Shown here: in pieces, positions 14,651-32,000 of the stretch
Numbering within the stretch: the stretch's first letter is position 1
Layout: each line of letters begins with the position of its first letter
Source of the DNA: Promethearchaeota archaeon
Lineage (GTDB): Archaea; Asgardarchaeota; Lokiarchaeia; Sigyniarchaeales; SOKP01
NCBI GenBank assembly: GCA_030606485.1
Contig: JAUWGH010000001.1
Coordinates: forward strand, 600,001 to 632,000
DNA length: 32,000 nt
Direction: 5' to 3'
The notes under the pieces: generated by a model
Told to the model about the DNA's origin: nothing
Databases searched by the model: none
Seen by the model: only the letters and a program-made list of their open reading frames with translations
Program-made: the position numbers and the translations under genes

Positions 14651-15400
14651 ATGTTTAATATCGGAAATATATATACAAAAAAAGGATATAAAATTATTGA
14701 TAACGTTTATTATTTTAAAGAAACACCTACATTAGATGCCAATAATTATATTATTTCTAATAAAGATAAGACAGATTTAACGTTAATAGATACTGGAAAC
14801 GGCATTTCATTTAAAAGTTTAATAGAAGAGATGGAAAAATTAAATCTATCATATAAAAACATTAAAAAAGTGATTCTAACACATATTCACGTTGATCATC
14901 TATTAGGTATCTATCCATTATTGTTAAAAATGAATAGTAATCCTCCCAAAATTTATGCTTTTGGGCATGCAGCAAGAACTATTAAAAATGCAGATATTTC
15001 AGCAATATTTCCGGGGAGTTTGGGACTCGGACCACAAACATTTAAAGTTAAGATAATTCCCATAGAAGTTAATGAACTTACAAATAATCAAGAAATATCC
15101 TGTGCAGAATATAAGTTTCGGATTATACATACTCCTGGACACAGTGAAGGATCAATTTGTTTATATGACCAAAAAAATAAGATTTTAATAAGCGGAGATG
15201 TAGTGTTTTCGGGTGGTGCATTTGGAAGATTTGATTTTCCTGGAGGGTCTTTAAAAAAATTGAAAAATTCTATTAAAATTTTAAGCCAATTAGACGTAAA
15301 ATATTTATTACCGGGGCATATGAGTTACAGTGCTAATGGAAATAAAGAAATCAAATTAGCTTTAAGAATAATTGAAAGTACAGCAAATTACTTTTTTTGA
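14651..15400 (+). CDS. MBL-fold metallo-hydrolase (glyoxalase II-like)
   Basis: LIDTG, THIHVDH, HTPGHS, ISGDVVF and LPGH metal-binding motifs. Confidence 0.9.
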   Translation: MFNIGNIYTKKGYKIIDNVYYFKETPTLDANNYIISNKDKTDLTLIDTGNGISFKSLIEEMEKLNLSYKNIKKVILTHIHVDHLLGIYPLLLKMNSNPPKIYAFGHAARTIKNADISAIFPGSLGLGPQTFKVKIIPIEVNELTNNQEISCAEYKFRIIHTPGHSEGSICLYDQKNKILISGDVVFSGGAFGRFDFPGGSLKKLKNSIKILSQLDVKYLLPGHMSYSANGNKEIKLALRIIESTANYFF

Positions 15401-15452: not shown

Positions 15453-15848
15453 ATGGCAATAAAAAAGAATTCTAAAGAAATTATAAATCGTATTGAAAAA
15501 CTCAATTTTGAGTTTAAAATCTGGTTTAAATTTAATAATCAAAATATTTTGGGGGATGGTTGGTCAAAATTACTTCAAACTATTAAAGAAAATAAAGGAA
15601 AATCTTTATTAAAAGCATCAGAAATTTGTAATTATAGTTATAAATATGCTTGGAGTATTTTAAAAAGGATTGAGGTAAGAACAGGAATACCGGCAGTCTC
15701 TATTGGAAGAGGTGGTCATGGAGGTGGTGGTTGGGTTAAATTAAATCAATGGGGCGAGATTTTATTAAATTTGTTCATTGAATTTAAAAAATTTTCAGAA
15801 ATTCAACTTCAGAATTATTTTATTGAATTAAAAAAGGTCAATAATTAA
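15453..15848 (+). CDS. ModE-like winged-helix regulator (DNA-binding domain only)
   Basis: FKIWF...ILGDGWSKLLQTI...SLLKASEICNYSYKYAWSILKRIE...GRGGHGGGGWVKL pattern. No molybdate-binding TOBE/mop domains. Confidence 0.8.
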   Translation: MAIKKNSKEIINRIEKLNFEFKIWFKFNNQNILGDGWSKLLQTIKENKGKSLLKASEICNYSYKYAWSILKRIEVRTGIPAVSIGRGGHGGGGWVKLNQWGEILLNLFIEFKKFSEIQLQNYFIELKKVNN

Positions 15849-16013
15849 ATTTTAATCTAATGATAATATCTATTTTAGAAAAAGAATTAATCAAAATAAA
15901 GATTAAAAAACAAAATTTTAGATAATAAATTATAAGAAAATATATATAAACAAATTAATAATTAAAAAAAATATACTTTAATCAAAAATATTGAAATAAT
16001 TAGGAAAAATATC

Positions 16014-17576
16014 ATGGAAATACCCGTAAATGTTCCAATTATTATTGATATTGGTGAAGCATATGTAAAAATAGGATTTGCTGGAGATCAAATTCCTAGA
16101 ATTGTATTTCCATGTATGACTGGCACTGAAAAATATAGATCAATTATGGTAGATATAGGAGAAGCCAGGGATAAAATGATTTATGTCGGAGAGGACTGCA
16201 TGAAGATGAGAGGTGTTTTAAAAATCACCTATCCAATTTCAAGAGGAAATATTACTCAGTGGGAAAGCTTTTATGAAATTTTAAATCATATTTTCTATAA
16301 TTTGCTAAGAATAAATCCGTCTGAATATGAAGTATTATATTCCGAACCAATAAATATCCCTAAAGAAACAAAAGAATATATAGCAAGAGTACTTTTTGAG
16401 ACACATCGCGTTAAAAAATTAATGATGATCCCCTCTCCATTATTATCTTTATTTTCTGTCGGATTAACTACAGGTTTAGTTATTGAATGTGGAGAAGGTT
16501 TAACTAATATAGTTCCCATAATAGATGGAAAGATTTTTTATCCGGCTGTCCAGATATTAACACTAGCTGGAGCTGATGTAAGTCTTCATTTAAAATCATT
16601 ATTACTAAGGCAAGGAATCAATTTAGAATTTTCTGCTCAAAAAGTAATTTTAAGAGAAATTATTGAGAAATTTTGTTATATTGCCTTAGATCCTTCCTCT
16701 ATCAATGAAAAAGTAAAAACAGAAAAACAAAGTTATGTTCTACCTGATGGAGAAGCAATCAATATTTATAATGAGTCTATGTATCTTTCTCCTGAAATTT
16801 TATTTCAACCTTCAATTTTGGGTTATAATATCCAAAGTATTCCAGAAGCTGTTATAAATTGCCTTGGAAATATAAATAGTGAATATTGGGCATTATTATT
16901 AAAGAATATTGTCGTATCAGGTGGCAACTCTTTCTATAATGGTTTTATTGAAAGATTAAAAGCAGAATTAATTACAATTTTACCAAATTTAGGTCCAATT
17001 CCAGCAATTCCAGAAACTCCACAAATTCAAGAAGAAAAATCATTAATTTCTCAAGAGGGAACATCTATCCTTCAAGATACGTGTGAGAAATGTGGAAATT
17101 TAGTTGATTTAAGCTCAGGAATTAAAATTTGCCCATATTGTGGTAATACTATGAAAACACCAACGATTGATATTCCTATAAAAACAGGTATAGAATTGAG
17201 TGAAAAAAAACTACAAAAAATAAAAGGGAAATGTCCTCATTGTAAAAAAGATTTACCTTCAGATTCAGAACATTTATTTTGTCCGTTTTGTGGTCAAAAA
17301 ATACAAGATTTAGAAGGTCAAGATATAAAAGAAGGTCAAGAAGTACATATCAAAGAATATACTGAACCGATAGTAGCAATACCTACTTATTATGAAGATG
17401 TCTCTGAATTATTTAATTTTTTTATTCCCGAGAACAAACAATTTGCAATCTTTTTGGGAGGCTCCATACTAAGTTCATTGCCTTCTTTTAGAAAATTATT
17501 TATTAACTCGAATCAATTTGCTTCAAATCCAAATCTATTATATCATGATATATCAGAAATTTTCAAAATTGAATGA
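16014..17576 (+). CDS. Actin-related protein with an internal double zinc-ribbon insertion
   Basis: Colinear with actin: IDIGEAYVKIGFAGDQIPRIVFP, YVGED...RGVLKITYPI, EPINIPKETKE, IECGEGLTNIVPI, AGADVS, YVLPDG, PEILFQPSILG, NIVVSGGNS, FLGGSILSSL. Four CxxC pairs lie between the last two motifs. Confidence 0.92.
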   Translation: MEIPVNVPIIIDIGEAYVKIGFAGDQIPRIVFPCMTGTEKYRSIMVDIGEARDKMIYVGEDCMKMRGVLKITYPISRGNITQWESFYEILNHIFYNLLRINPSEYEVLYSEPINIPKETKEYIARVLFETHRVKKLMMIPSPLLSLFSVGLTTGLVIECGEGLTNIVPIIDGKIFYPAVQILTLAGADVSLHLKSLLLRQGINLEFSAQKVILREIIEKFCYIALDPSSINEKVKTEKQSYVLPDGEAINIYNESMYLSPEILFQPSILGYNIQSIPEAVINCLGNINSEYWALLLKNIVVSGGNSFYNGFIERLKAELITILPNLGPIPAIPETPQIQEEKSLISQEGTSILQDTCEKCGNLVDLSSGIKICPYCGNTMKTPTIDIPIKTGIELSEKKLQKIKGKCPHCKKDLPSDSEHLFCPFCGQKIQDLEGQDIKEGQEVHIKEYTEPIVAIPTYYEDVSELFNFFIPENKQFAIFLGGSILSSLPSFRKLFINSNQFASNPNLLYHDISEIFKIE

Positions 17577-17674
17577 ATAATTACTAATTCATTATCTTTT
17601 CTCACTTCTACTTAATTTGCTCATTATTCGATTCGATACTTTTATTTATTTTCAAATATTTTTAAAATAATAAA

Positions 17675-18841
17675 TTGGATCTAAAAAGAGAACCCACATT
17701 AAGAGTGACTTTAAAAATTAGATGGAATAAAATTTTTATTATACTATTTTTATTGAGTTTGATTTCAGTTTCATTGGGAGCACTATTTTCCCCAGTAACT
17801 GCAAGATCAAGAAGAACCCATTTAACTGATTTTATTCTCAATAATAGAATTGAAAATAAAGGCTATTCAAATTCAATTTTAGAAGAACATTACGTTTCCG
17901 AACAATCAACCTACTATGCTTTAAAAATGCTTGAAGATTTAGATTTACTTGAAACTCAAGAAGATTTAGATATTTTGGCAACAACACTTGCTCAGAATGT
18001 TCAAACCGAACTTGATGAGTATGATGATAATTCTCTAATAACCCTATATTATCTACTCCATTCATTAAGTGTTTTAGATAGCTTAGATGAAATAAGCACT
18101 GATAATAAAAATGAAATTATCAATTGGATTAATCTCTCAATAGATGAAAATGGTGGTTTTAAAAATTTTAATAGTTCCTTACCAACCGTATTTAATACAT
18201 ATTTTTCGGTTAAAGTTTTGTATCTATTAAGTTCAGAAAATATTTTCGACAGTCAGAACCATACGGAATGGATAATTAGTTGTAATAATTCCGATGGTGG
18301 TTTCGGCGGAAATTCAACATTAAATTCATCAATAATTAGTACATATTATGCAGTTTTGGGAGTTAATAACCTTACAGATATTAGTGATCTATCATTGCAA
18401 AACGAATCAATTATTCAATACATAATGGAATCTTATAATTCCGATATTGCCGATTCTCTAAATTACGGTGGGTTTTCTCAAACAGACTCTCCTACTAAAA
18501 GTTTAATTAGTACAACATTTTATTGTGTCTCTACCGTAAATTTATTAGATTCTAATCAGCTGGATTCTGAAACAATCCTTCAGTGGATTTTAGAATCTCA
18601 GAATCCAATCGATGGTGGCTTTTCAGAATCAAAATCAGATGGTTCTACATCATATTCTTCCATGATAACAACTTATTATGCTTTTAATATTATAAAATAT
18701 CTTGATCCTGATTTCTTTTCATTAAATGAAGATGTGTGGGATGTAGAATTTAATTGGGTAATATTAATAATACTTATCTTAATTATAATAGCAGCGCCAA
18801 CTATTGTTATTTTCATTATTTGGCGGAAAAGAAAAGTATAA
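17675..18841 (+). CDS. Predicted type I membrane protein with extracellular prenyltransferase/squalene-cyclase-like repeats
   Basis: Signal-like N-terminus (IFIILFLLSLISVSLGALFSPVTA). Four GGF repeats (ENGGF, DGGFGG, YGGFSQ, DGGFSE), each followed by a (S)TYY/TYF-type helix. C-terminal TM helix and RKRKV tail. Start uncertain (TTG 17675 or a nearby downstream GTG). Confidence 0.75.
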   Translation: MDLKREPTLRVTLKIRWNKIFIILFLLSLISVSLGALFSPVTARSRRTHLTDFILNNRIENKGYSNSILEEHYVSEQSTYYALKMLEDLDLLETQEDLDILATTLAQNVQTELDEYDDNSLITLYYLLHSLSVLDSLDEISTDNKNEIINWINLSIDENGGFKNFNSSLPTVFNTYFSVKVLYLLSSENIFDSQNHTEWIISCNNSDGGFGGNSTLNSSIISTYYAVLGVNNLTDISDLSLQNESIIQYIMESYNSDIADSLNYGGFSQTDSPTKSLISTTFYCVSTVNLLDSNQLDSETILQWILESQNPIDGGFSESKSDGSTSYSSMITTYYAFNIIKYLDPDFFSLNEDVWDVEFNWVILIILILIIIAAPTIVIFIIWRKRKV

Positions 18842-19606
18842 TTACAGTTTTTTTCGATTTACTATCTCCTTAATAGCAAAAGTGGCTACATCTTCAGCAT
18901 ATTTGTTGGGTCCAAATCCTGCATCATATCCTAATTCTTTTGCTAGTTCATGAGTTATTCTAGGACCTCCACAAACCAGAATAACCTTATCTCTTAACCC
19001 TTCACCTTCTAAAAGATCTACAAGCTGTGTTAAATTTTTTAAATGAATATCTTTTTGAGTAACAGTCTGAGATACAAGTAATACATCAGCTTTCAACTCT
19101 AAAGCTCTTTTAATAAACTCTTCATTTGGTACTTGACTACCCATATTATAAGCTTCTACCATTTCATAGCTTTCAAGCCCGTAATGACCTTTATATCCTT
19201 TCCTATTTATTATAGCATCTATGCCTACGGTGTGTGCATCTGTTCCAGTTGTTGCTCCAAGTATTATAATTTTTCGTTCAATATTTTCTTTTATATATTC
19301 ATTTATTTGCTCTCTAGCCATAATTTCTTTATCTATTGCATCTAAATGAATTTCCGTATAATCTATAGTTTGATTTAATCTTCCATAAACAACAAAATAG
19401 GTAAATCCTTTATCTAGAGGACAATGATATACAACAGAGGGATTTTTTACCCCCATTTTTCTAGTCAATATTTTTGCAGCCACTATAGCTTTTTCATCGT
19501 CTTCTACTGGAAGTGTAAAACTAATTTGCACTTTTCCGTCATTAAAAGTATCTCCATATGGCTTAATTTTTGTCAAATCAAGGGTTTTATCAAATTTATT
19601 ATTCAT
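18842..19606 (-). CDS. kamE: D-lysine/beta-lysine 5,6-aminomutase beta subunit (B12-binding)
   Basis: IKPYGDTFNDGKVQISFTLP, DAHTVGIDAI (DxHxxG), KGYKGHYGLE (PLP lysine region) and LLVSQTVTQKDIH. Confidence 0.95.
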   Translation of the reverse strand: MNNKFDKTLDLTKIKPYGDTFNDGKVQISFTLPVEDDEKAIVAAKILTRKMGVKNPSVVYHCPLDKGFTYFVVYGRLNQTIDYTEIHLDAIDKEIMAREQINEYIKENIERKIIILGATTGTDAHTVGIDAIINRKGYKGHYGLESYEMVEAYNMGSQVPNEEFIKRALELKADVLLVSQTVTQKDIHLKNLTQLVDLLEGEGLRDKVILVCGGPRITHELAKELGYDAGFGPNKYAEDVATFAIKEIVNRKKL

Positions 19607-19613
19607 ATTTCTT

Positions 19614-19619
19614 CTCCTT
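19614..19619 (-). promoter_or_regulatory. Shine-Dalgarno AAGGAG upstream of kamE
   Basis: Reverse strand reads AAGGAG, then 7 nt, then the ATG at 19606. Confidence 0.6.
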
Positions 19620-19651
19620 AATATTATTTAATTAGTAAATAACAAATAATT

Positions 19652-21235
19652 CTAAATTGGATTTTCTTGAACCATTAATTCAATAAATGGATTAAAATAA
19701 TCCTTTTCTTTTTCAAACACACCTTCCAAACCTTTACCACCGTTTATTTTCCTCTTTATTCCAGCAAATATTCCCTTTTCGATTGTGCTGAATAAACCTT
19801 CTTTTTCTATTTCTTTCAAAAGTGAATAAGCTTTATTTAAAACTTCATTAACTCTTTTTTCCATTATTCCACCTTGTTTAAAAGCAATTTCCTCTCCTAA
19901 AGATTTCATATTATTGAAAATATATTTCGCATTTTCTATAGATAATGCTCTATCAGACATAAAAGGAGTGTGTATGGCTTCGGTTAACATTCCAAGTAGA
20001 TGAATTTTCTGATTAGTCATAATAGTTATCATATTAAATAAAGCGTTTTGAATATGGCCCTTAAAGATATTTCCTGACATAAACTTTGTTGGGGGCATAT
20101 ATTTTAAGGGGGCTTTAGGAAATATTTCTCTTGCCATTTGAGCTTGTGCAAGTTCATATAAAAATCCGTTTTCCAACTCAGGATTCATTTCAAAAGCATG
20201 ACCCAAACCAAGTTGTTCTTCTTTTAAACCAGCAAGTAGAGCAAATTGTTCATTTATAAATTGAGAAGCAAGCACGGTATGAGCTGCTTCAAATGCATCA
20301 TCTGTAGTTAAATAATTGTCTTCTCCAGTATTTATAATGACACCTGCAAATGCATTAATCATCCTTGAAAAATATTGATCAATAATAGTTCTTTTCATAT
20401 TAATATCTCTAAATAATATTCCATAAAGAGCATCATTAAGCATCACATCAAGTCTCTCAAATGCTCCCATAGCAGCTATTTCAGGCATGCAAAGTCCAGA
20501 ACAGTAATTAGTTAATCTTATATATCTTCCCAATTCTTCTCCAACTTCATCTAAAGCTTTTCTCATAAGCCTAAAGTTTTCTTGGGTTGCATAAGTACCA
20601 CCAAATCCTTCTGTTGTCGCACCATAAGGCACATAATCAAGAAGACTCTGTCCAGTAGATCTAATAACTGCAATGATATCTGCTCCTTGTTTTGCGGCAG
20701 CTTTTGCTTGAGTGATATCTTCATAGATATTCCCCGTTGCAACAATTATATATAAAAGAGGTCCTTCCTTCTCACCAAATTTTTCAAGATAAGCTTCTCT
20801 CTTTTTTTTATTATTTATTATTTTTTCTAAAGTTTGTTTAGTTAATTTGGTTATAGTTATCTTTATTTCAGATAAATCATTCATCGGAAGTTTTGTCAGA
20901 TCAAGTTCATCTTTTGATATTTTTTCTGCAATCTCTTGAGGGGATAATCTTTTTTGGAGAATTGCATTTCCAATAAAGATAGCCACACCTTTTCCAAGCC
21001 CCTTATCCTTTTTAATATTATTAACAACTACATTCGGTAAAGGAACCCCAAACTCATCTACTCCATCTATACCAAGTAATCTACAGACAGTTCTTTCAAT
21101 TGAGGTTGTAGTGTGTTTATCTATAAATTTTTGGGTGTCTAAAGCAATAGTTTTTGCTGTCTCTCTTGCTTTTTTTACTATTGAGAAATCTAAATTCAAT
21201 TTGCTATTTACTGCTTTATTAATCAATTTTTTCAC
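19652..21235 (-). CDS. kamD: D-lysine/beta-lysine 5,6-aminomutase alpha subunit
   Basis: SKLNLDF, ERTVCRLLGIDGVD, VATGNIYED, RSTGQSLLDYVPYG, NYCSGLCMPEIA, LNDALYGILFRDIN, KYMPPTK and GMLTEAIHTP. GTG start, uncertain. Confidence 0.95.
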   Translation of the reverse strand: MKKLINKAVNSKLNLDFSIVKKARETAKTIALDTQKFIDKHTTTSIERTVCRLLGIDGVDEFGVPLPNVVVNNIKKDKGLGKGVAIFIGNAILQKRLSPQEIAEKISKDELDLTKLPMNDLSEIKITITKLTKQTLEKIINNKKKREAYLEKFGEKEGPLLYIIVATGNIYEDITQAKAAAKQGADIIAVIRSTGQSLLDYVPYGATTEGFGGTYATQENFRLMRKALDEVGEELGRYIRLTNYCSGLCMPEIAAMGAFERLDVMLNDALYGILFRDINMKRTIIDQYFSRMINAFAGVIINTGEDNYLTTDDAFEAAHTVLASQFINEQFALLAGLKEEQLGLGHAFEMNPELENGFLYELAQAQMAREIFPKAPLKYMPPTKFMSGNIFKGHIQNALFNMITIMTNQKIHLLGMLTEAIHTPFMSDRALSIENAKYIFNNMKSLGEEIAFKQGGIMEKRVNEVLNKAYSLLKEIEKEGLFSTIEKGIFAGIKRKINGGKGLEGVFEKEKDYFNPFIELMVQENPI

Positions 21236-21335
21236 TTTAAATATGATATCTTTTTATATTTTTGATTGTATTTACAATTTTCTCTTTACTTCTAAAACCA
21301 TCAATCTTTCCATATTTTAATCTAAATGGTTTTAG

Positions 21336-22367
21336 TTAATCACTAGGTCCAAGATCATAAATGGGGATATTAATATTTTCTTTTAATAATGTTAGAAATT
21401 CATTTTTATCAAACTGGTATCCAAATGGAGAGGTTGGATTTGCGGTTACTGCAATCAACTTTATTGGGTTTAATACTTTTAAGATACCCCCTTTTTTTTG
21501 GAATTTTTCCAGTAAACCTTTACTTAAGAATAATTTTGTACCATCCTCTACCAAAAATGTAACTCCTTTATAGTTATCAGTAGAATCCATTAAATCGCTT
21601 AATAATTTATCAGAAATTGGTCCTTTTATTACGACGTATTTTGAGTTACTATTTAAATTTTCATTTATCTCTGTAGCTGCATCCAGTGAAGTTATTACTT
21701 CTAGCATTTTTATGGAGTTTTTTGAATCAATTATCCCAATTTTTGAGTTTTTGAAAATTTCATTAGCCAATTTGAGTATTTTTTCTTCTTTTTCATTTTC
21801 TATGGTCAATAATTTAACTATATGAGCGGTTAAATCAACAACCTTATGCATATTTTCTGATATAGATGCCCCTGTTGACAGTATTGTAGCATCAGATATT
21901 ACAGGAGCCGCATATGATTTTCTATCAAATGCACCATCCACTAAAATGATATCACATCCTAAATTAATTAATTCTAAACAAATATTAGATAAATATTTAT
22001 TTATCGATGGCCCTGCTAACTCTATATAGCCACTACTCATAACCTTTAATATTTTAACTACTCCTAGTGGTGTATTAAATCCCGTAGTTTTAATAAATTC
22101 CATCTTGATATTACTATTATCAAGACTTTGCTCTGCTGTTGCTACATAAGTTTCCTTTTCAATATAAATGCGTGGTTTTGGTAAACGAGTAATAACGTCA
22201 TACTTTTCTCCATCTCTTCCTATAGAAGTAATCCCCAAATTTCCTTTAAAATTTCTAATAATATGATTTAAAGTCGTAGTTTTCCCCGTATTTTTCCCCA
22301 TTCCAATAATTGATATAATTTTGTATTTTTTAATCATATCAAGAAGTTGTATCGAGATCACCATCAT
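21336..22367 (-). CDS. kamB: KamB-like lysine 5,6-aminomutase reactivase subunit
   Basis: SIIGMGKNTGKTTTLN, ITSIGRDGE, KPRIY, TPLG, LAGPS and LVDGAFDRKS. Lies directly downstream of kamA, as in clostridial/fusobacterial clusters. Start may be a few codons later. Confidence 0.8.
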   Translation of the reverse strand: MMVISIQLLDMIKKYKIISIIGMGKNTGKTTTLNHIIRNFKGNLGITSIGRDGEKYDVITRLPKPRIYIEKETYVATAEQSLDNSNIKMEFIKTTGFNTPLGVVKILKVMSSGYIELAGPSINKYLSNICLELINLGCDIILVDGAFDRKSYAAPVISDATILSTGASISENMHKVVDLTAHIVKLLTIENEKEEKILKLANEIFKNSKIGIIDSKNSIKMLEVITSLDAATEINENLNSNSKYVVIKGPISDKLLSDLMDSTDNYKGVTFLVEDGTKLFLSKGLLEKFQKKGGILKVLNPIKLIAVTANPTSPFGYQFDKNEFLTLLKENINIPIYDLGPSD

Positions 22368-22428
22368 CTTTCGTAATTAAAAGAATAGATTTCATTTTAA
22401 ATATTAAATATTTTCAATGCTTTTACTT

Positions 22429-23673
22429 TTATTTACTTAAACTCCTTTTCCTTATATTACGTTCTAGATCTTCTGGTTCAATTGTTATTTTTTGTCCATT
22501 CAATAGTCCTGCGACACCAATTAGTTTCTCTCGATCTTCACAGTTACATTGTGGTTGATAATCAGATGGCTCTGCATACGTTGTGATAACTCCCTCAAAA
22601 TTCCTTAACACAACTCGACTATTGCCTTGAGAAATAATATAATTCGGAAATATTGGTATCTTACCCCCGCCACCAGGTGCATCAACTACAAATGTAGGTA
22701 CGCATAAACCGGAAGTATGGCCCCTTAAACCCTCGATAATTTCAATACCTTGGGCGATACTTGTTCTAAAATGCTTAAGTCCCATAGATAAATCGCATTG
22801 GTAAATATAATATGGTCTAACCCTTATTTTTACTAGTTCATGGACTAGTTTTTTCATTACATGAATACAGTCATTTACTCCTCTTAATAATACTGATTGA
22901 TTACCAAGAGGTATGCCTGCATCAGCAATCATTTCACAAGCTTTTTTGGATTCCTCAGTAATCTCATTTGAATGATTAAAGTGAGTATTAAACCAAATTG
23001 GATGATATTTCTTAAGCATATCAACTAATTCTTGATTAATCCTTTGGGGCATTACAACGGGAGTTCTTGAACCTATACGAATAATTTCAACGTGGGGAAT
23101 CTCCCTTAACTTTTTTATTATATACTCCAATTCTTTATCAGAAATTAATAAAGCATCTCCTCCAGACAATAAAACATCCCTTATGGCTGGAGTTTTGGCA
23201 ATATATTCTATTGCATCATTGATCTGCGACTTTGGGGGAGCTTTATCATGATGTCCGGCAAATCTTCTCCTTGTACAATGCCTACAATACATTGAACAAT
23301 TCTCTGTGATTAAAAAAAGTACTCTATCTGGGTATCTATGAGTTAAACCCTTAACTGGTGCATCTTCATCTTCATGAAGAGGATCATGCAGATCATCTTC
23401 ACACTTTTCTAATTCAAATACTGTTGGGATTGCTTGTTTTCTTACGGGATCATCTTTATCATTAACATCTATTAAAGATAAATAATATGGAGTTATTGCC
23501 ATCCTCATAGATTCCAAACATTTCTTGATTCCTTCCTCTTCCTCTTTACTAAGAGGGATATACTTTTTTAAATCATCCAAAGTAGTTATTCTGTTTCTAA
23601 ACTGCCAATGCCAATCATTCCATTGTTCATCTGGAACGTCCTTAAAGAGTTCAAATCTTCTATATACCTTCAT
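22429..23673 (-). CDS. kamA: L-lysine 2,3-aminomutase (radical SAM, PLP)
   Basis: WNDWHWQ, GLTHRYPDRVL, CSMYCRHCTRRR, DVLLSGGD, PLGNQSVLLRGVND, YQCD, GLRGHTSG and DAPGGGGKIP. Confidence 0.97.
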   Translation of the reverse strand: MKVYRRFELFKDVPDEQWNDWHWQFRNRITTLDDLKKYIPLSKEEEEGIKKCLESMRMAITPYYLSLIDVNDKDDPVRKQAIPTVFELEKCEDDLHDPLHEDEDAPVKGLTHRYPDRVLFLITENCSMYCRHCTRRRFAGHHDKAPPKSQINDAIEYIAKTPAIRDVLLSGGDALLISDKELEYIIKKLREIPHVEIIRIGSRTPVVMPQRINQELVDMLKKYHPIWFNTHFNHSNEITEESKKACEMIADAGIPLGNQSVLLRGVNDCIHVMKKLVHELVKIRVRPYYIYQCDLSMGLKHFRTSIAQGIEIIEGLRGHTSGLCVPTFVVDAPGGGGKIPIFPNYIISQGNSRVVLRNFEGVITTYAEPSDYQPQCNCEDREKLIGVAGLLNGQKITIEPEDLERNIRKRSLSK

Positions 23674-23714
23674 TTGTTCTGCCTTTTTTTCATTATTTTG
23701 TATACTTATTTATA

Positions 23715-24752
23715 TTAAACGTACTTTTCCTCAAAAATTTTCCTTAATTTATCAGATTCTCTTAACTCATCTAAAGCTATTTGAGAGTGACCTTTTGTGT
23801 ATCCATTTCCAATTATCATTACAACATCTTTCCCAACACCTTCTGCTCCTAATGCTGCCTTTGCAAAACTTGTTGCCATGGAAAAGAAATACACTATTCC
23901 ATTTTCCTTAACAGGGAGAATACTAGACATCTCTGTATTGGGGATACTTAAACAATTAATCGAAATATCAACTTCTATTCCGTTATTTACTTTTAAAGTT
24001 TCATTTAAAATTTCTATGGGTTTAAGAACATCTGCGACAATTACTTCATGGCAAAACTCTGTACTTTTAAGAAATTTGGCACGTTTTTCATTTCGAGCTT
24101 GTCCTATTACTTTACCCTGCGGTCCAACTTTTTTTTTAGCCATATAAGAGCACATTAATCCGGATTTTCCAGTTGCTCCAAGTATTAAGACACAATCTCC
24201 CGATTTCACAAGTTTTGTAGTTTGTGCTGGAGCACCTGCAACATCAAGAGCGGCTAATGCTAATGTATCTTCTATATCTTCCGGAAGCTTTGCATATATT
24301 CCACTTTCAAAAAGTATCGCCTTCCCATTAATATCAACTCGCTCAATATCAGGTTTTATATCCAGAATTTTATCGATTCTAAGTGGTGTTAATGTAAGTG
24401 ATACTAATGTAGCAATTTTATCTCCAACTTTCAAATCAATTTTTTCTTTTAATGAGTTTCCAATTTGCTCTACTTTTCCAATTAACATTCCTCCAGAACC
24501 AGTTACAGGATTCTGCATTTTACCCTTATCATTTACAATTTCTAAAATTTTAATTTTTATTTTTTCTAAATTTCCGTCTGCTTCCTCCTTAAGTTGAGAA
24601 AAACTAGCAGAATCGATATTTAGTGAAATAACATCGATTAATAGTTCATTATCATATAACTCCATATCATTTGATATTTTATTTGCTGTTTGGGGTAATA
24701 CACCTTGTGGTTCAATTACTCTATGTGTTCCATATTTTGATCCTTTTTTCAT
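23715..24752 (-). CDS. kdd: L-erythro-3,5-diaminohexanoate dehydrogenase
   Basis: KYGTHRVIEP.GVLPQ, LNIDSASF, NPVTGSGGML, ATLVSLTLTPL, LAALDVAGAP, FSMATSF and AALGAEG. Confidence 0.95.
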   Translation of the reverse strand: MKKGSKYGTHRVIEPQGVLPQTANKISNDMELYDNELLIDVISLNIDSASFSQLKEEADGNLEKIKIKILEIVNDKGKMQNPVTGSGGMLIGKVEQIGNSLKEKIDLKVGDKIATLVSLTLTPLRIDKILDIKPDIERVDINGKAILFESGIYAKLPEDIEDTLALAALDVAGAPAQTTKLVKSGDCVLILGATGKSGLMCSYMAKKKVGPQGKVIGQARNEKRAKFLKSTEFCHEVIVADVLKPIEILNETLKVNNGIEVDISINCLSIPNTEMSSILPVKENGIVYFFSMATSFAKAALGAEGVGKDVVMIIGNGYTKGHSQIALDELRESDKLRKIFEEKYV

Positions 24753-24817
24753 AATATCATCCTAATTAGGTTAATTTAAGATACATAATTAAAATATATA
24801 TTATTGGTAAGAACTAT

Positions 24818-25525
24818 CTATTTTTTTACTCCAATATAAAGCCCTCTGTCTTTTATTAAACCTTTTTTTAAAAATTCTGGTTTAAATCCTGTTTCTTTCA
24901 TAAATTCTAAAGTTTTATCAATTTCAAAAAGTCCCAATTCATGTCTATCCTTATAATATTTAATTTCTTTATTTCTCTCCGCAATCAAATAGTGCATATC
25001 CAGAACCGAGAGATTTCCTTCAATTTTTGAAATATTTAATCTTGCGATTTTTATATCTTCACCATCATAAGTATTCATATGTGGAAATCCTTCTATATAA
25101 GTGGATTTTGTAAGCCATGGTTCAAATATCACAACCCCACATCTTTTTAAGTGGTTTGCAAAATTTTGAATACATTGTTTTAAATTTGAATAAGTTTTTA
25201 CATAACCAATTGAACTAAATAAGCAAATAATTATATCAAATTTCTTATTAAGATTTAATGTAATCATGTCTGCTTTTTTGAAACTAACTCCCCTAACATT
25301 TTTTTTCGCAATATTTATCATTTCTTCATTAATATCAACACCCATACAAGAAAAAGTATTCTTTAAATACTCTAAGTGCTTTCCAGTACCACAAGCAATA
25401 TCTAGAAGCTCATTTCCATCCGATTTTTTATATTTTAAAATTAACTTTTTAATTTTTTTAGCTTCTTTCTTATAATCTTTCCATGAATAAATCAAATCAT
25501 AATATGAGGCAATTTCTCTATACAT
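24818..25525 (-). CDS. Class I SAM-dependent methyltransferase (TylM1/DesVI N-methyltransferase-like)
   Basis: YYDLIYSWKDYKKEA, LLDIACGTGKH, DIIICLFSSIGY, VVIFEPW and HELGLF. Confidence 0.8.
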   Translation of the reverse strand: MYREIASYYDLIYSWKDYKKEAKKIKKLILKYKKSDGNELLDIACGTGKHLEYLKNTFSCMGVDINEEMINIAKKNVRGVSFKKADMITLNLNKKFDIIICLFSSIGYVKTYSNLKQCIQNFANHLKRCGVVIFEPWLTKSTYIEGFPHMNTYDGEDIKIARLNISKIEGNLSVLDMHYLIAERNKEIKYYKDRHELGLFEIDKTLEFMKETGFKPEFLKKGLIKDRGLYIGVKK

Positions 25526-25555
25526 AATTGAATCTTATTTTATTATTATATTAAT

Positions 25556-26380
25556 TTAATTCAATCCTAATATTTTCCTTGCTTCCATAGGAGTAGCAAT
25601 ATCTCTTCCTAATTCCCTTGAGATTCTTACAACCTTCTCGACTAATTCTCCATTGGATTTTGCTAAAACTCCTTTTGATAAGTACACATTATCTTCAAAT
25701 CCAACTCTTGCATGACCACCCATTATTATTGATAAAGTTACCATTGGATACTCATGTCTTCCTATAGCACATACTGAATATGTAGAATCTTTAGGAATGC
25801 TTTCAACTAAAAAAGTCAAATCTCTTGCACTTGCCTTTATACCGCCATTAACACCTAATACAAAGCTAAAATGCATCGGATCTTTGATATATCCTTTATC
25901 ATGTAATTTTAAGGCCATATCAACCATACCCTTATCAAAACATTCTAATTCCGGCTTAATACCCCGTTCATTCATTTTTTTAGCAAATTCTATAATAGTA
26001 TTTTCAGTATTTATAAAAATCTCATCTCCGCCAAAATTACAAGTACCACAGTCAAGAGTAGCCATTTCAGGAGGAGGTTCTAAGTAAATCGGTTGGAGCC
26101 TTTCTTTATTACTCATACCTACAACCCCGCCAGTGGAAGGTTGAATTATAACATCTGGACATCGATTTTTTATCTCTTCTATACACACTTTGAATTTGTC
26201 TATATTTTGAGTAGGAGTGCCATCATCTTCTCTCACATGCAAATGGATAATACTGGCTCCAGCTTTATATGCCAATTCAGCTTCCTTTCCTATTTCATCA
26301 ATAGAATACGGAATATTGGGATTAAGTTCTTTTGTTACTTCTGCTCCACATATAGCAGCAGTAATAATCAATTTTTCCAT
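25556..26380 (-). CDS. kce: 3-keto-5-aminohexanoate cleavage enzyme (BKACE)
   Basis: LIITAAICGAE, IIHLHVR (Zn His pair), STGG, EMATLDCGTCNFG, KPELECFD and GGHARVGFEDN. Confidence 0.95.
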   Translation of the reverse strand: MEKLIITAAICGAEVTKELNPNIPYSIDEIGKEAELAYKAGASIIHLHVREDDGTPTQNIDKFKVCIEEIKNRCPDVIIQPSTGGVVGMSNKERLQPIYLEPPPEMATLDCGTCNFGGDEIFINTENTIIEFAKKMNERGIKPELECFDKGMVDMALKLHDKGYIKDPMHFSFVLGVNGGIKASARDLTFLVESIPKDSTYSVCAIGRHEYPMVTLSIIMGGHARVGFEDNVYLSKGVLAKSNGELVEKVVRISRELGRDIATPMEARKILGLN

Positions 26381-26488
26381 TAAAAATCCCTGATAATATT
26401 TAAAGAAATTGAAAAATTTAAATTAAAAATTATTTAGTAAAATATTCAATAAAGAAAATCTTATAGCTTTTTATGTAATTCGATTTTA

Positions 26489-27131
<643 letters not shown>

Positions 27132-27231
27132 TTATAATAATTCTCAGGAATAAATATTTTTTAACCAGTATTCAGAAATAAGAATTATTTTGAATTTTTA
27201 AATTGTAAGATAAAATTAAAGTCTAAAGAAA

Positions 27232-28476
27232 TTATAATAATTTTTTGCATTCATTTAAAGATTCTTTAATCATATTGGCAGCATGATCCAAATCTTCATC
27301 AGTATGTCGATAACATACATAACCATGATGATATGGTTGAAGGAATATACGCCGACGAATTAACTGTGTATAAAATTCTTCACGCAATTTTTTATATAAA
27401 AAGTTTGGATCACGTTGAAAAGTGATATAAGGCATCCAAGGATCACCTGAAAATGTGCATGGAATACCACTATCTTTTATGATATCTTTAACCTTAGATG
27501 CAAAACGACTCCCTCTTTCATTAATAACGTCTAAAACCATTTCTCGCTCTAAAATTTCAATAGTTTTAAGTGCCGCTACTTGAGCAAGACTATTTGGCCA
27601 AAATGTAGAAGTAATAAATACTTTTTCGATTAAAGCATCCATATATTCTTTTTTACCGACACAAACACTGATCGGATAACCATTTGCCATTGATTTTCCA
27701 AATGCGGCAAGATCCGGAATCACATCAAATTTTTTTTGGGCACCCCCCAAATTTACACGAAAACCTGTACGAATTTCATCATAAATTAAAAGAGAGTCAT
27801 ATTTAGTTGCCAACTTGCGAATACCTTTTAAAAAACCAGGTTTAGGCATCTGAACTTCATGACCTCCTTGATGATCGATAGGGGTTAAAATAATTGCTGC
27901 TACATCATTACCATACTGTCCCATTATGTTTTCAGCTTGATCAAGGTTATTGTATTCAAATTCATAAACATCTTCAAAAGACTTTTTAGGAATTCCACCT
28001 TTTTGTTCAACACACCAACTATGCCACCCATGATAACCACAACGAAGCACCTTTATCCGTCCTGTATATCCACGAGCAACACGAATAGCAATAGTTGTTG
28101 CCTCAGAACCGGTTTTTACAAAAACTGCTTTCTCACAGCATGGAATTAATTCAATCAATTTCTTTGCTAATTTATTTTGAACCTGTTGGGTTAATGACAT
28201 GCAAAACCCTTTATTTTTTATCTGTTGTATTACAACATCATCAATTTCTTCTTCCCGATGACCAATAATAATCGGACCATAAGCGCAAAGCATATCAAGA
28301 AATTCATTACCATCTACATCAATGACTTTTCCTCCTTTACCCTTTTCAAAGAAGATTGGATATTCTCCCTCTACAAAATTATAAGGGCGACGGATTCCTA
28401 ATATGGCACCAGGAATAAGTTTCAAAGCATCTTCATACAATTGATTTGATTTTTCCAACTTTAATTTTTTAGCCAA
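27232..28476 (-). CDS. kat: 3-aminobutyryl-CoA aminotransferase (class III PLP, Kat-like)
   Basis: Class III motifs LIYDEIRTGFR and AFGKSMANG. GIRRPYNFVEGEYPIFF and FLQPYHHGYVCYRHTDEDL match Kat of Ca. Cloacamonas acidaminovorans as I recall it, and the gene sits next to kce. Start placed at the second TTG (28476), 7 nt after an AAGGGAG SD, rather than at 28482. Confidence 0.85.
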   Translation of the reverse strand: MAKKLKLEKSNQLYEDALKLIPGAILGIRRPYNFVEGEYPIFFEKGKGGKVIDVDGNEFLDMLCAYGPIIIGHREEEIDDVVIQQIKNKGFCMSLTQQVQNKLAKKLIELIPCCEKAVFVKTGSEATTIAIRVARGYTGRIKVLRCGYHGWHSWCVEQKGGIPKKSFEDVYEFEYNNLDQAENIMGQYGNDVAAIILTPIDHQGGHEVQMPKPGFLKGIRKLATKYDSLLIYDEIRTGFRVNLGGAQKKFDVIPDLAAFGKSMANGYPISVCVGKKEYMDALIEKVFITSTFWPNSLAQVAALKTIEILEREMVLDVINERGSRFASKVKDIIKDSGIPCTFSGDPWMPYITFQRDPNFLYKKLREEFYTQLIRRRIFLQPYHHGYVCYRHTDEDLDHAANMIKESLNECKKLL

Positions 28477-28706
28477 TTTCAAACTCCCTTTTCTTTAATG
28501 ATTAATGCAATTAAATATAATTATTGAAGATTTCTAAAAACTTATTTTATTTCTTTTTAATTTCTTAAAATTTGAATATTTTTTACTTTTTCTAAGTAAA
28601 TTATTAATTTTAATAAAATATGAATAATCCAATTTTTAAAGTGTGACAAAATAATTTTAAATATGGTCTCATAAAGAATTAAAACAGATTAAAATTGATC
28701 ATCAAA

Positions 28707-29570
28707 ATGCAAAAAGAAAAAATTATAGATGGGAAAAAACTCGCTGAAGAATTGAACCAAAAATTAAAAAAACAAATCGAAATTACAATTAAAAAAACCG
28801 GAATTAAACCAAAATTAGCTACTATCCTTGTAGGAGATAGTCCGGCTTCAAAAGTATATCTCAATATTAAGAAAAAAATATGTGATAAAGTTAATATTGA
28901 AAGTGTATCCATAGAATTAGATAAAAATGTTAATAAAAATCAACTTTTAAATGAAATAAATCGATTAAATACTGATACTTCCGTTCATGGAATTTTATTG
29001 CAATTACCACTCCCACAAAATCTAATAGAAGATACAAATCAATTTTTAGCTACAATTGATCCAAATAAAGATGTTGATGGATTACACCCCATGAATACAG
29101 GAAATTTATTCAATTATAACGAATATTTGAGTCCTTGTACTCCAAAAGGCATTATTAAGTTATTGGAATATTATAATATTGATCTCTCTGGAAAAGATGT
29201 AACAATTATCAATAGAAGTAGGCTTGTTGGGAAGCCCTTGATTTTCATGCTATTAAAAAGAAATGCTACTATCAGTGTTTGCCATACTAAAACTAAAGAT
29301 ATAAATAAATATATTAAGAACGCTGATATTTTAATTGTTGCAGTAGGAAAGCCGAAATTTATAAAAGTAGATCAAATTAAAGAAGGAGTTGTAATTATTG
29401 ACGTGGGAATTACGCGCATCGACGGAAATTTATATGGGGATGCAGATTTTGAAAATGTCCTTCCAAAAGTCTCAAGAATAACGCCAGTTCCCGGAGGAGT
29501 GGGACCAATGACGACTCATATGCTTATGCAAAATACTTATAATACTTTTAAAAACTTAATTAAAATATAA
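28707..29570 (+). CDS. folD: Methylenetetrahydrofolate dehydrogenase/cyclohydrolase
   Basis: IIDGKKLA, LATILVGD, GILLQLPLP, KDVDGLHP, PCTPKG, NRSRLVGKP, CHTKT, IDVG and TPVPGGVGPMT. ATG 28707 preferred over TTG 28695. Confidence 0.95.
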   Translation: MQKEKIIDGKKLAEELNQKLKKQIEITIKKTGIKPKLATILVGDSPASKVYLNIKKKICDKVNIESVSIELDKNVNKNQLLNEINRLNTDTSVHGILLQLPLPQNLIEDTNQFLATIDPNKDVDGLHPMNTGNLFNYNEYLSPCTPKGIIKLLEYYNIDLSGKDVTIINRSRLVGKPLIFMLLKRNATISVCHTKTKDINKYIKNADILIVAVGKPKFIKVDQIKEGVVIIDVGITRIDGNLYGDADFENVLPKVSRITPVPGGVGPMTTHMLMQNTYNTFKNLIKI

Positions 29571-29672
29571 TATGGTAAAGAATCAGAATAGAAATATTTT
29601 ATAAAATCATAATTTATTTATTACTTGATTATTTTAATTATAATCTTAAAATTTTCAATAAAATAGGCCCCT

Positions 29673-30128
29673 ATGCCAATATATGAAGCTGGAATTAATT
29701 TAGGAAATAGAAATTTAATTCAAATTAAATATTATATCTCCCCTGAACAACTTGATCCAAATTTAAGAGCCGGATTTCTCCAGGCACTTGATGGATTTAG
29801 TCACGAAGTCATGGGCGACGATATCGATACTATATCACTTGCTTCATTTAAGTTAGTTTGTGTTTCTATTCCATTAGCACTACCGGGGGTTTCAACTCCT
29901 GAAGATACCTTACCTCTAATTTCTTATGCAATTATTGATAAAAAACTTTCTGTAGAAACTGTAAAAGAACAGTTAGATTTAGTTTCTCGGCGATTTACTA
30001 ACAGATACTCAATAAATGATATTTTTTCGAAAAAGCCTAAATATTTTAGAAAATTTACATCTTTATTTGATGAGATTTTGGGTGATTTGAAGCTTAAAGA
30101 AGAAGATCGATTTAAATCAATATTATAA
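29673..30128 (+). CDS. Longin-like domain protein (Asgard type)
   Basis: Pattern DPNLRAGFLQALDGFSHEVMGDDIDTISLASFKLV ... LDLVSRRFTNRY ... FRKFTSLFDEIL resembles Asgard longins and sedlin/AP-sigma folds. Confidence 0.65.
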   Translation: MPIYEAGINLGNRNLIQIKYYISPEQLDPNLRAGFLQALDGFSHEVMGDDIDTISLASFKLVCVSIPLALPGVSTPEDTLPLISYAIIDKKLSVETVKEQLDLVSRRFTNRYSINDIFSKKPKYFRKFTSLFDEILGDLKLKEEDRFKSIL

Positions 30129-30170
30129 AAATTCAATTAAAAATATTTAAAGTAGAATGGGAAAAATACT

Positions 30171-31358: not shown

Positions 31359-31379
31359 ATATAAAGTAGGCTTTATTTA

Positions 31380-32000
31380 TTAATAATCTTCGATATCTTC
31401 CTCTTTTAATTTTAGGATATCTTTTATAACCTGAGATAGTTCTGATTCTTGGTTCGCGTCTTTTTCAAGTAACATTTTTGCCATTTCTTTAAATTTCTGA
31501 TACTCATTTCCAGAAGATATTTTTTGAATTTTTGAACCAAAAGAATATAGATTTAAATATGTGTCTCTATATTCTCCCTCAATAAGAGGTTTCTGACCAA
31601 TTTTTTTTAAAGACTCACTTAAAGATTCTTTTGCTCTTTGTAAATAATATTTAATTTTAAATTTTGTATCATCAATCTCTCTTTTTACCTGCTGGAATCT
31701 TTTCTGATATTGTCTATATCCATTATCATCCTTTAATTGATTAGAAATATCTAAAATGTTCTCAATTATCTTTTGTTTTCTTATTAAATTTTCGGTTTGA
31801 TTTAATCGATCTTCTAAAAATTGCTTTTCTTCTAATAAATCCTCAACTTTTTGGGGAGAGAGTGCCCCTTTTTGCTCCCAAATTGATTTTAAAACTTCCA
31901 TTTGATTATCCGTAAGAGTTTTTTCATCTATTAATGATTTTTCAGAAACAATTAACTGGGAAATTGGATGATCTAAAATCTTAAATATATCCTTTTGACC
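31380..32000 (-). CDS. Hypothetical protein, C-terminal part only (helical, coiled-coil rich)
   Basis: The frame of ORF 31380-31901 stays open for 33 more codons to the window edge (GQKDIFKILDHPISQ...), so the track's ATG is probably internal. Confidence 0.7.
   Translation of the reverse strand, partial: GQKDIFKILDHPISQLIVSEKSLIDEKTLTDNQMEVLKSIWEQKGALSPQKVEDLLEEKQFLEDRLNQTENLIRKQKIIENILDISNQLKDDNGYRQYQKRFQQVKREIDDTKFKIKYYLQRAKESLSESLKKIGQKPLIEGEYRDTYLNLYSFGSKIQKISSGNEYQKFKEMAKMLLEKDANQESELSQVIKDILKLKEEDIEDY

What the first reader, a model, noticed from the sequence alone, without database searches (positions are those of the whole stretch)
16986..17408. Actin-related protein carrying a ~140-aa double zinc-ribbon insertion
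Seen: between the adenosine-motif helix (SGGNS...ERLKAEL) and the C-terminal IPENKQFAIFLGGSILSSL lie two four-Cys ribbons, CEKC-x12-CPYC (17082-17141) and CPHC-x12-CPFC (17232-17291), flanked by Pro-rich and acidic linkers. Known: in actin this is the short APSTMKIKII segment of subdomain 3, and divergent eukaryotic Arps gain specificity through surface insertions. Inferred: an Asgard Arp-like class that uses zinc ribbons as a partner- or nucleic-acid-binding module, or as a block to filament contacts. I do not recall this architecture being described, but I cannot search.
Basis: partly seen in the sequence, partly recalled or inferred. Interest (0 to 1): 0.85.

Follow-up and report, generated by a model that had tools for sequence, protein, structure and literature searches.

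The report
Lokiarchaeal actin relative with zinc-ribbon insert
This gene encodes a real actin-like protein, conserved across one order of Loki-type Asgard archaea, with two small zinc-binding modules on flexible tethers spliced into a filament-contact loop; its function is untested and I found no paper describing the insert.

Summary
ORF 16014-17576 (+) encodes a 520-aa actin-fold protein (Pfam Actin, 248 bits). Residues 327-467 are an insert with two C-x2-C-x12-C-x2-C zinc ribbons at exactly the stated coordinates.

All eight cysteines are kept in 121 of 121 close homologues. The ribbons are as conserved as the actin core, while the three linkers are variable and predicted to be disordered. 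A contig from an independent study spans the whole gene, so this is not a chimeric assembly.

The family forms one well-supported clade, separate from lokiactin. Full-length copies occur only in the window organism's own GTDB order, which includes Ca. Lokiarchaeum ossiferum and Ca. Harpocratesius repetitus. It is therefore not pan-Asgard. The L. ossiferum orthologue, UYP44711.1, was published as an unnamed 'ARP' and has only one ribbon.

The equivalents of actin's catalytic Q137 and H161 are replaced, but a lokiactin-like D-loop and the barbed-end groove are kept. My best reading, which is inferred, is a poorly hydrolysing Arp that docks on lokiactin and presents tethered ribbons as a protein-binding adaptor at its barbed-end face.

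This scan had already found the family in five other genomes. I found no paper describing the insert. I class it as a new variant of a known kind.

The parts
16014..17576 (+). Complete gene for the zinc-ribbon actin-related protein (520 aa plus stop codon)
   Evidence: ORF list and translation. Pfam Actin E=1.4e-73. AF2 model has TM 0.90 to actin structures.
16014..16991 (+). Actin core, N-terminal part (residues 1-326): phosphate-1 loop DIGEAYVK, D-loop, phosphate-2 ECGEG, adenosine motif SGGNS and the helix ERLKAELITILP
   Evidence: Matches Pfam Actin positions 6-357 and PDB actins. pLDDT is mostly 85-94. Family invariants are D12 G14 K19 E158 G160 G162 G303 G304.
16992..17075 (+). Linker A (residues 327-354). 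It begins with the conserved LGPIP motif and is otherwise variable and partly Pro-rich.
   Evidence: Mean majority fraction 0.45. pLDDT is below 50 for residues 335-351.
17076..17147 (+). Zinc ribbon 1 (residues 355-378), family consensus DTCPxCGxLVDLSDGKxxCPxCGA. It is present in every family member examined.
   Evidence: D355, C357, C360, G361, C373 and C376 are invariant. Conservation is 0.76, equal to the core. It is also present in families f2-f4.
17148..17228 (+). Linker B (residues 379-405): variable, mildly basic and disordered
   Evidence: Conservation 0.39. pLDDT is below 50. An in-frame 9-nt deletion at 17192 occurs in a strain variant.
17229..17300 (+). Zinc ribbon 2 (residues 406-429), family consensus CPxCxKxIxDxxSxFCPYCGK. 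It is absent in L. ossiferum and in family f4.
   Evidence: C407, C410, C423, P424, C426 and G427 are invariant in the family-f1 alignment. It is missing in P0271, P0273 and P0126.
17301..17414 (+). Linker C (residues 430-467): acidic, variable and disordered, with a semi-conserved xEF motif
   Evidence: Median net charge -6, conservation 0.37, pLDDT below 50 for residues 432-455.
17415..17573 (+). Actin core, C-terminal part (residues 468-520): strand FFIPEN and the helices of subdomain 1 that line the barbed-end groove
   Evidence: Second HMMER stretch 470-504 against actins. pLDDT 82-91. P472, G482, L486, S488 and F502 are invariant.
15453..15848 (+). Conserved upstream neighbour: a 131-aa stand-alone ModE-N-terminal-like winged-helix protein
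   Evidence: Weak matches to PDB 2ijl (E=0.012) and to ModE. Orthologues weakly match Pfam HTH_1. It lies upstream of the Arp on the same strand in nearly all f1 loci with room, and in most f3 loci examined.
17675..18841 (+). Conserved downstream neighbour: a 388-aa protein with an N-terminal signal or anchor, a prenyltransferase-type alpha-alpha toroid domain and a C-terminal transmembrane helix
   Evidence: Pfam Prenyltrans E=3.4e-30. It sits directly downstream of the Arp in every f1, f2 and f3 locus with room. This is not so in f4.

Best explanation
Shown: this is a lineage-specific actin-related protein found in one order of Lokiarchaeia. It has a complete actin fold. One or two independently folding Cys4 zinc ribbons are spliced into the subdomain-3 loop (actin residues about 321-328), each held on flexible tethers of roughly 25-35 residues. 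Inferred mechanism: the protein still binds ATP, because the phosphate-1, phosphate-2 and adenosine glycines, K19 and E218 are invariant. It probably hydrolyses ATP poorly or not at all, because the residues at actin's Q137 and H161 positions are S/T and W/N. It keeps a lokiactin-like D-loop (KYxS[VI]MxDV) and the hydrophobic barbed-end groove. Both subdomain-3 loops that make the longitudinal contact with subdomain 4 of the next subunit are changed: 283-294 is remodelled and 321-328 carries the insert. I therefore propose that it docks on lokiactin, at a filament end or on a monomer, through actin-type contacts, while its own barbed-end face displays the tethered ribbons. Ribbon 1 is as conserved on its surface as the core and would be a specific protein-binding adaptor. 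As a by-product, the ribbons would hinder or alter addition of the next subunit.
For: Actin fold. Insert position relative to lokiactin. All eight Cys are invariant, together with non-Cys ribbon residues (D355, G361, V364, L366, P374, P424, G427). Conservation is 0.77 for the core, 0.76 for ribbon 1, 0.68 for ribbon 2 and 0.37-0.45 for the linkers. The ribbons fold separately (pLDDT 73-79) around a disordered linker, with pTM 0.31. Catalytic-site substitutions, the retained D-loop and groove, and the remodelled 283-294 loop. The family is a single clade with a long stem (SH-aLRT 100; UFBoot/SH-aLRT 100/99). It co-exists with lokiactin and two other actin paralogues in the same genome. From the literature, D-loop M44/M47 insert into the barbed-end groove, and subdomain-4 E241 pairs with a subdomain-3 residue of the neighbouring subunit (PMC10918085). 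The L. ossiferum orthologue was assayed by RT-qPCR alongside lokiactin, whose transcripts were several-fold higher than those of the other actin homologues (PMC9834061).
Against: There is no direct evidence of binding to lokiactin. Long flexible linkers could let the ribbons swing clear of the interface, so self-polymerisation or co-polymerisation is not excluded. The L. ossiferum orthologue keeps a His at the H161 position, so loss of ATPase may not be uniform across the family. Ribbon 2 is dispensable in some lineages. Zinc binding itself is inferred from sequence only. My recollection that Arp3 carries an insert at the same loop could not be checked, because that paper is not held.
Confidence: 0.4

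Rival explanations
1. It builds a second, self-polymerising filament system. The actin core assembles into its own filaments, and the tethered zinc ribbons decorate the outside as docking sites or cross-linkers.
For: The D-loop and barbed-end groove are both strongly conserved within the family, as expected if they bind each other. Linkers of 25-35 residues on both sides could route the ribbons out of the longitudinal interface.
Against: Both subdomain-3 longitudinal contact loops are altered. The residues actin uses for polymerisation-coupled ATP hydrolysis are replaced. In L. ossiferum, lokiactin transcripts were several-fold higher than those of the other homologues, and the filaments observed were attributed to lokiactin (PMC9834061).
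Confidence: 0.2
2. It is a non-cytoskeletal Arp comparable to the eukaryotic nuclear Arps (Arp4/5/8). It would act as a stable subunit of a larger complex, with the zinc ribbons binding DNA or RNA or a nucleic-acid enzyme.
For: In eukaryotes, insertion-bearing, ATPase-poor Arps are typically complex subunits (my own knowledge). The nearest solved zinc ribbons by profile are RNA polymerase subunits P and M, ribosomal eL43 and NOB1, but only at E 0.008-0.1, which is generic. A wHTH regulator gene lies directly upstream.
Against: The universal ribbon 1 is net acidic (median -2), and the insert as a whole is close to neutral or acidic. No remodeller-type ATPase or nucleic-acid enzyme is a conserved neighbour. 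A strongly conserved actin-type D-loop is not expected for this role.
Confidence: 0.1
3. It links the cytoskeleton to the cell envelope. The Arp would work with the adjacent membrane-anchored alpha-alpha-toroid surface protein, the ribbons holding that protein's short cytoplasmic end.
For: The Arp gene is followed on the same strand by the Prenyltrans-domain membrane protein in every f1, f2 and f3 locus with room: more than 80 loci, with Arp identity down to 35-38%.
Against: In f1 the conserved block is much longer, so adjacency there is not specific. In the basal family f4 the downstream gene encodes a TPR protein instead. Prenyltrans-like proteins of similar size (329-427 aa) occur in sister orders that lack the Arp. 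In this window the surface protein's C-terminal tail after the transmembrane helix is only about 5 residues, and in L. ossiferum the N-terminus looks like a plain signal peptide, which leaves little to bind.
Confidence: 0.1
4. It is an artefact: a chimeric assembly or a mis-called frame joining an actin gene to a zinc-ribbon gene.
For: None found.
Against: It is a single open frame. The same architecture occurs in over 120 independently assembled genomes. An independent contig spans the whole gene. The actin fold resumes after the insert.
Confidence: 0.01

Closest known systems
Ca. Lokiarchaeum ossiferum 'ARP' UYP44711.1 (Rodrigues-Oliveira et al. 2022, PMC9834061)
   Same: It is an orthologue in the same clade. 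It has the same gene neighbourhood: wHTH, Arp, Prenyltrans protein, FolD. It carries the same ribbon 1 at the same loop.
   Different: It is 499 aa with only one ribbon, and it is about 38% identical in the best tblastn segment. The paper treats it only as an unnamed ARP in a tree and an RT-qPCR target. I found no mention of the zinc ribbon in it.
Lokiactin / eukaryotic actin (Pfam PF00022; e.g. PDB 9wc4 'HC1 actin', yeast actin 1yag)
   Same: Same fold (TM 0.90). About 36-37% identity over residues 8-330. A similar D-loop motif and barbed-end groove. The nucleotide-binding glycines, K18 and the adenosine GG are retained.
   Different: It has a 141-aa insert in the 321-328 loop. Q137 is replaced by S/T, H161 by W/N, D154 by E, G15 by A and H73 by R. 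The 283-294 loop is remodelled. It forms a separate clade, and the genome has its own lokiactin (P0292).
Eukaryotic Arps with functional surface insertions (Arp3 inserts; Arp4/5/8)
   Same: The principle is the same: an actin core gains specificity through loop insertions and has altered ATPase residues. PMC4947185 states that Arp2 and Arp3 contain conserved inserts with complex-specific functions.
   Different: I know of no eukaryotic Arp insert that is a zinc ribbon (my own knowledge). Orthology to any Arp class is not shown, because the tree backbone is unresolved. The distribution is limited to one archaeal order.
Stand-alone double zinc ribbon proteins (Pfam DZR PF12773, Zn_ribbon_3 PF13248)
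   Same: Two C-x2-C-x11-12-C-x2-C knuckle pairs. The insert scores above the DZR cut-off when scanned alone. The nearest protein-language-model neighbours are small DZR proteins.
   Different: Here the module lies inside an actin fold, and its two ribbons are separated by a disordered linker of about 25 residues rather than forming one compact unit. No close donor was found in the same genome; the best other match has E=8e-5.

Membership tests
Actin family (Pfam PF00022) | Profile score above the curated cut-off | tested here: met
   248.3 bits against a cut-off of 27, E=1.4e-73.
Actin family (Pfam PF00022) | Four-subdomain actin fold | tested here: met
   The AF2 core has pLDDT 85-94. Foldseek gives TM 0.88-0.92, normalised to the target, against many actin structures at E about 1e-35.
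Actin family (Pfam PF00022) | Phosphate-1, phosphate-2 and adenosine nucleotide-binding motifs | tested here: met
   D12, G14, K19, G21, E158, G160, G162, G303 and G304 are invariant in 55 sequences. Actual ATP binding was not assayed.
Lokiactin / bona fide actin | Catalytic Q137 and H161 and a short 321-328 loop | tested here: not met
   The Q137 position is S/T, the H161 position is W (N in this protein), and the loop carries a 141-aa insert.
Lokiactin / bona fide actin | Groups with the lokiactin clade; about 60% identity to eukaryotic actin | tested here: not met
   It forms a separate clade with support 100 and a stem length of 0.4-0.56. It is 36-37% identical to actins. The genome's own lokiactin, P0292, is 57-65% identical to eukaryotic actins.
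A named eukaryotic Arp class (Arp1-Arp10) | Robust sister relationship to one Arp class in a phylogeny | tested here: inconclusive
   The backbone of the 69-row tree is unresolved. The only suggested sister is the genome's own 375-aa paralogue, at SH-aLRT 80. Named eukaryotic Arps were not in the data set. JGI labels such as 'centractin' are automatic.
Double zinc ribbon (Pfam DZR PF12773) | Two Cys4 knuckle pairs and a profile score above the cut-off | tested here: met
   There are four CxxC motifs. The insert alone scores 36.2 bits against a cut-off of 27.3, and 26.8 bits within the whole protein.
Double zinc ribbon (Pfam DZR PF12773) | Binds zinc | not testable with these tools
   This needs metal analysis of purified protein.
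Zinc-ribbon Arp family of Lokiarchaeia (defined here and in earlier notes of this scan) | Actin core with at least one Cys4 ribbon in the 321-328 loop, and membership of the clade | tested here: met

The most novel reading that the evidence does not exclude
The zinc-ribbon Arp is a single-polypeptide regulator of lokiactin filament ends, acting as a cap or a nucleator. It would have evolved within Lokiarchaeia independently of the eukaryotic Arp2/3 complex and capping proteins. Its tethered ribbon 1 would recruit it to a defined cellular site or partner, making it the first archaeal Arp with an assigned job.
Probability: 0.2. Interest if true: 0.8.

Novelty: new variant of a known kind. Interest (0 to 1): 0.55.

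Why it matters
Asgard archaea encode several actin paralogues. Only lokiactin has a known role, and what the 'ARPs' do is an open question in work on the archaeal roots of the eukaryotic cytoskeleton. This family gives that question a concrete handle. It has a sharply defined, invariant module (ribbon 1) that can be deleted, mutated or used as bait. It also has natural one-ribbon and two-ribbon variants. An orthologue exists in the culturable Ca. L. ossiferum. The family is confined to one order of Lokiarchaeia and was not found in the other Asgard classes sampled. It therefore speaks to lineage-specific elaboration of the archaeal actin system rather than directly to eukaryogenesis.

Tried and rejected
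- **Complex prediction:** Complex prediction of lokiactin (A2) with the Arp (A1) was not folded. This gives no information either way.
- **RNA evidence:** The look-up of sequencing runs listed no RNA holder.
- **Literature:** searches for the Asgard/ARP/actin plus zinc-ribbon architecture found no description of it. The Arp3 insert paper (PMC3537046) is not held, so that comparison rests on memory.
- **Fold search of the isolated ribbons:** nothing at E<=0.001, only generic small ribbons such as RanBP2-type ZnF, AccD and Nop10.
- **Profile search of the PDB with the ribbons:** only weak, generic hits.
- **Protein-atlas feature search:** generic DZR clusters, all scoring below 0.9.
- **Donor search in the own genome:** no close relative of the insert.
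- **Apparent absence in G147:** this congener is 100% complete but seemed to lack the gene. Its contig C5 is collinear with window 20403-31990 and ends there, and the neighbouring MBL and Prenyltrans genes are also not found. This is an assembly break, not a loss.
- **Long hits P0129-P0138:** I checked whether these were intermediate relatives. Those that carry a taxon name are eukaryotic actin gene models.
- **NCBI labels:** names such as 'Thor-', 'Hod-', 'Hermod-' and 'Odinarchaeota' on some homologues suggested a pan-Asgard spread. I rejected that reading because the GTDB-based genome survey found no full-length match outside the order.

Full report
**Observation**

The window is AT-rich, with 19-34% GC. 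It carries a 520-aa ORF at 16014-17576 on the + strand. Pfam Actin matches residues 8-327 at 248 bits, and HMMER alignments to solved actins resume at residues 470-504. It holds CEKC-x12-CPYC (nt 17082-17141) and CPHC-x12-CPFC (nt 17232-17291). Scanned alone, the insert passes the Pfam DZR cut-off at 36.2 bits against 27.3. Aligned with the genome's own lokiactin, the insert sits between IPE329 and SVDVK330, which is the actin 321-328 loop of subdomain 3.

**Is it real and conserved?**

A search of 5.8 billion proteins returned 426 hits. The best 120 are nearly all 490-520 aa and carry an Actin domain together with zinc-ribbon (mostly DZR) Pfam domains. Every one of the 121 sequences has exactly four CxxC motifs at equivalent positions.

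In a 55-sequence alignment all eight Cys are invariant. Several non-cysteine ribbon residues are invariant or nearly so: D355, G361, V364, L366, P374, P424 and G427. Mean per-column conservation is as follows:

| Region | Conservation |
|---|---|
| Actin core | 0.77 |
| Ribbon 1 | 0.76 |
| Ribbon 2 | 0.68 |
| Three linkers | 0.37-0.45 |

Linker C is acidic, with a median net charge of -6.

AlphaFold2 gives a confident actin core and moderately confident ribbons, and three linkers with pLDDT below 50. Folded alone, the insert forms two separate ribbons (pLDDT 73-79) around a disordered linker, with pTM 0.31. The core matches actin structures with TM about 0.90.

Sequencing runs from 10 studies hold at least 60% of the sampled words of this stretch; one run may be the source of this DNA. 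One 2750-nt contig from an independent study covers 15960-17700 with 12 mismatches and one in-frame 9-nt deletion in linker B.

**Distribution**

I searched 400 genomes of the phylum with a profile of the family. Full-length matches (profile positions 1-509) occur only in the window organism's own GTDB order:

- Family f1: 127 of 134 genomes, of which two carry only a partial or interrupted copy (G229, G194).
- Family f2: 1 of 1.
- Family f3: 10 of 14.
- Family f4: 4 of 4, but matched only through ribbon 1.

Other families of the class, and all other classes, give only matches of about 1e-85 to 1e-97 over positions 6-324. Those are lokiactin.

The 6,035,313-bp single-contig genome in f3 is Ca. 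Lokiarchaeum ossiferum. Its orthologue is UYP44711.1. The 4,361,485-bp genome is Ca. Harpocratesius repetitus. NCBI labels such as 'Thorarchaeota' or 'Hodarchaeota' on some homologues therefore probably do not reflect a wider spread.

The f1 genomes without a match are mostly incomplete. For the 100%-complete congener G147, the relevant contig simply ends inside the adjacent lysine cluster, and the neighbouring genes are missing too. That is an assembly break.

**Phylogeny and variants**

In a 69-row tree the family is one clade (SH-aLRT 100) on a long stem. The deeper backbone is unresolved, and the only suggested sister is the genome's own 375-aa paralogue, at support 80. The next-best database hits after the family are eukaryotic actins.

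Within the family, f4 is basal and has a single ribbon. L. ossiferum also has a single ribbon but nests among two-ribbon forms. This holds with the insert columns removed, and the tree needs two changes in ribbon number. Ribbon 1 is the universal hallmark and ribbon 2 is dispensable.

**Active site and interfaces**

Relative to actin and lokiactin, the family keeps D11, G13, K18, G156, G158, the adenosine GG and E214 (actin numbering). The substitutions are:

| Actin residue | In this family |
|---|---|
| G15 | A |
| H73 | R |
| Q137 | S/T |
| D154 | E |
| H161 | W (N in this protein; H retained in L. ossiferum) |

Q137 and H161 position the attacking water in actin, so weak or absent hydrolysis is a reasonable inference.

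The D-loop is unusually conserved and resembles that of lokiactin: EKYKSVMVDV against PKYESIMTDV. The residues lining the barbed-end groove are kept. These are the segment corresponding to actin 140-150, and the C-terminal helices with L486, L489 and F492.

By contrast, the subdomain-3 loop at actin positions 283-294 is remodelled and now contains an invariant Trp. The 321-328 loop carries the insert. In actin-type longitudinal contacts, D-loop M44/M47 enter the groove, and subdomain-4 E241 pairs with a subdomain-3 residue of the neighbouring subunit (PMC10918085). The protein thus keeps the parts needed to dock on, or receive, an actin-type partner, but has changed the subdomain-3 part of its own barbed-end face.

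**Gene neighbourhood**

The gene order is: a ModE-like wHTH protein of about 125-134 aa, the Arp, a membrane-anchored Prenyltrans-domain protein of about 364-407 aa, then FolD. This order holds in essentially every f1 locus with room, and the Arp, Prenyltrans protein, FolD part holds in f2 and f3 as well.

Three observations temper a functional reading:

- In f1 the syntenic block is much longer, so adjacency there is not specific.
- In basal f4 the downstream gene encodes a TPR protein.
- Similar Prenyltrans proteins exist in sister orders that lack the Arp.

In this genus, the lysine-fermentation cluster at 18842-28476 has been inserted between the Prenyltrans gene and FolD.

**Interpretation**

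The shown facts fit a lineage-specific Arp that is ATP-binding, poorly hydrolysing and carries a tethered protein-interaction module. I favour interaction with lokiactin, with the ribbons displayed at the barbed-end face, at confidence 0.4. The alternatives are:

- a self-polymerising decorated filament (0.2);
- a nuclear-Arp-like complex subunit with nucleic-acid-binding ribbons (0.1), disfavoured because ribbon 1 is acidic;
- a link to the neighbouring surface protein (0.1).

Nothing can be concluded from that.

**Prior knowledge**

The genes are deposited as 'zinc ribbon domain-containing protein' or 'actin-related protein'. UYP44711.1 appears as one of three unnamed ARPs in the tree and RT-qPCR of Rodrigues-Oliveira et al. 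(PMC9834061). In that study lokiactin transcripts were several-fold higher than those of the other actin homologues. Seven full-text searches found no paper describing the zinc-ribbon insert.

This scan had already flagged the same family in five other genomes, with concordant follow-ups. My additions are:

- the restriction of the family to one order;
- the one-ribbon and two-ribbon history;
- the limits of the synteny argument;
- the independent-contig check;
- the resolution of the apparent absence in a congener.

**Verdict**

The feature is real and conserved, but it is a variant of a known kind (an Arp with a functional insertion), not a new category. It is moderately interesting and directly testable in a cultured organism.

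Noticed in passing
window 18842-28476: The minus-strand lysine-fermentation cluster (KamE, KamD and others) sits between the Prenyltrans gene and FolD only in this genus (window, L009, L010). In about 75 other loci FolD directly follows the Prenyltrans gene. The cluster therefore looks like a genus-specific insertion into a conserved block.
   Followed up: partly
window 14651-15400: The metallo-beta-lactamase-fold gene is on the + strand here and in L010 but on the - strand in all other syntenic loci. This points to a local inversion in this genus.
   Followed up: no
window 17192 (9 nt): A contig from a different study carries an in-frame 9-nt deletion in linker B of the Arp. This matches the 517-aa variants (such as P0002) and shows that linker length varies between strains while the frame is kept.
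   Followed up: partly
G194:C12:3318-4412 (not fetched): One f1 genome (58% complete) has a copy of the zinc-ribbon Arp interrupted by 3 TAG and 2 TAA codons. It may be a pseudogene or a poor assembly.
   Followed up: no
L017, L018, L019, L023, L025, L038, L045, L057, L065, L067, L083, L084: These MAGs are labelled Thor-, Hod-, Hermod- or Odinarchaeota at NCBI, yet they carry the Arp and the same syntenic block as the Lokiarchaeia loci. The GTDB-based survey found no full-length match outside the order. The NCBI labels of this MAG series therefore look unreliable.
   Followed up: partly
L004:1471-2670 and L002:1483-2607 (own genome, contigs C7 and C1): The genome has two further actin paralogues besides lokiactin. 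One is a 375-aa Arp that may be the sister of the zinc-ribbon family. The other is a very divergent 400-aa Arp on a long branch (2.58). Neither has a known function.
   Followed up: partly
window 15453-15848: The small protein conserved upstream of the Arp resembles the DNA-binding N-terminal domain of ModE (PDB 2ijl, E=0.012) but has no molybdate-binding domain. Pfam does not detect it at the default threshold.
   Followed up: partly
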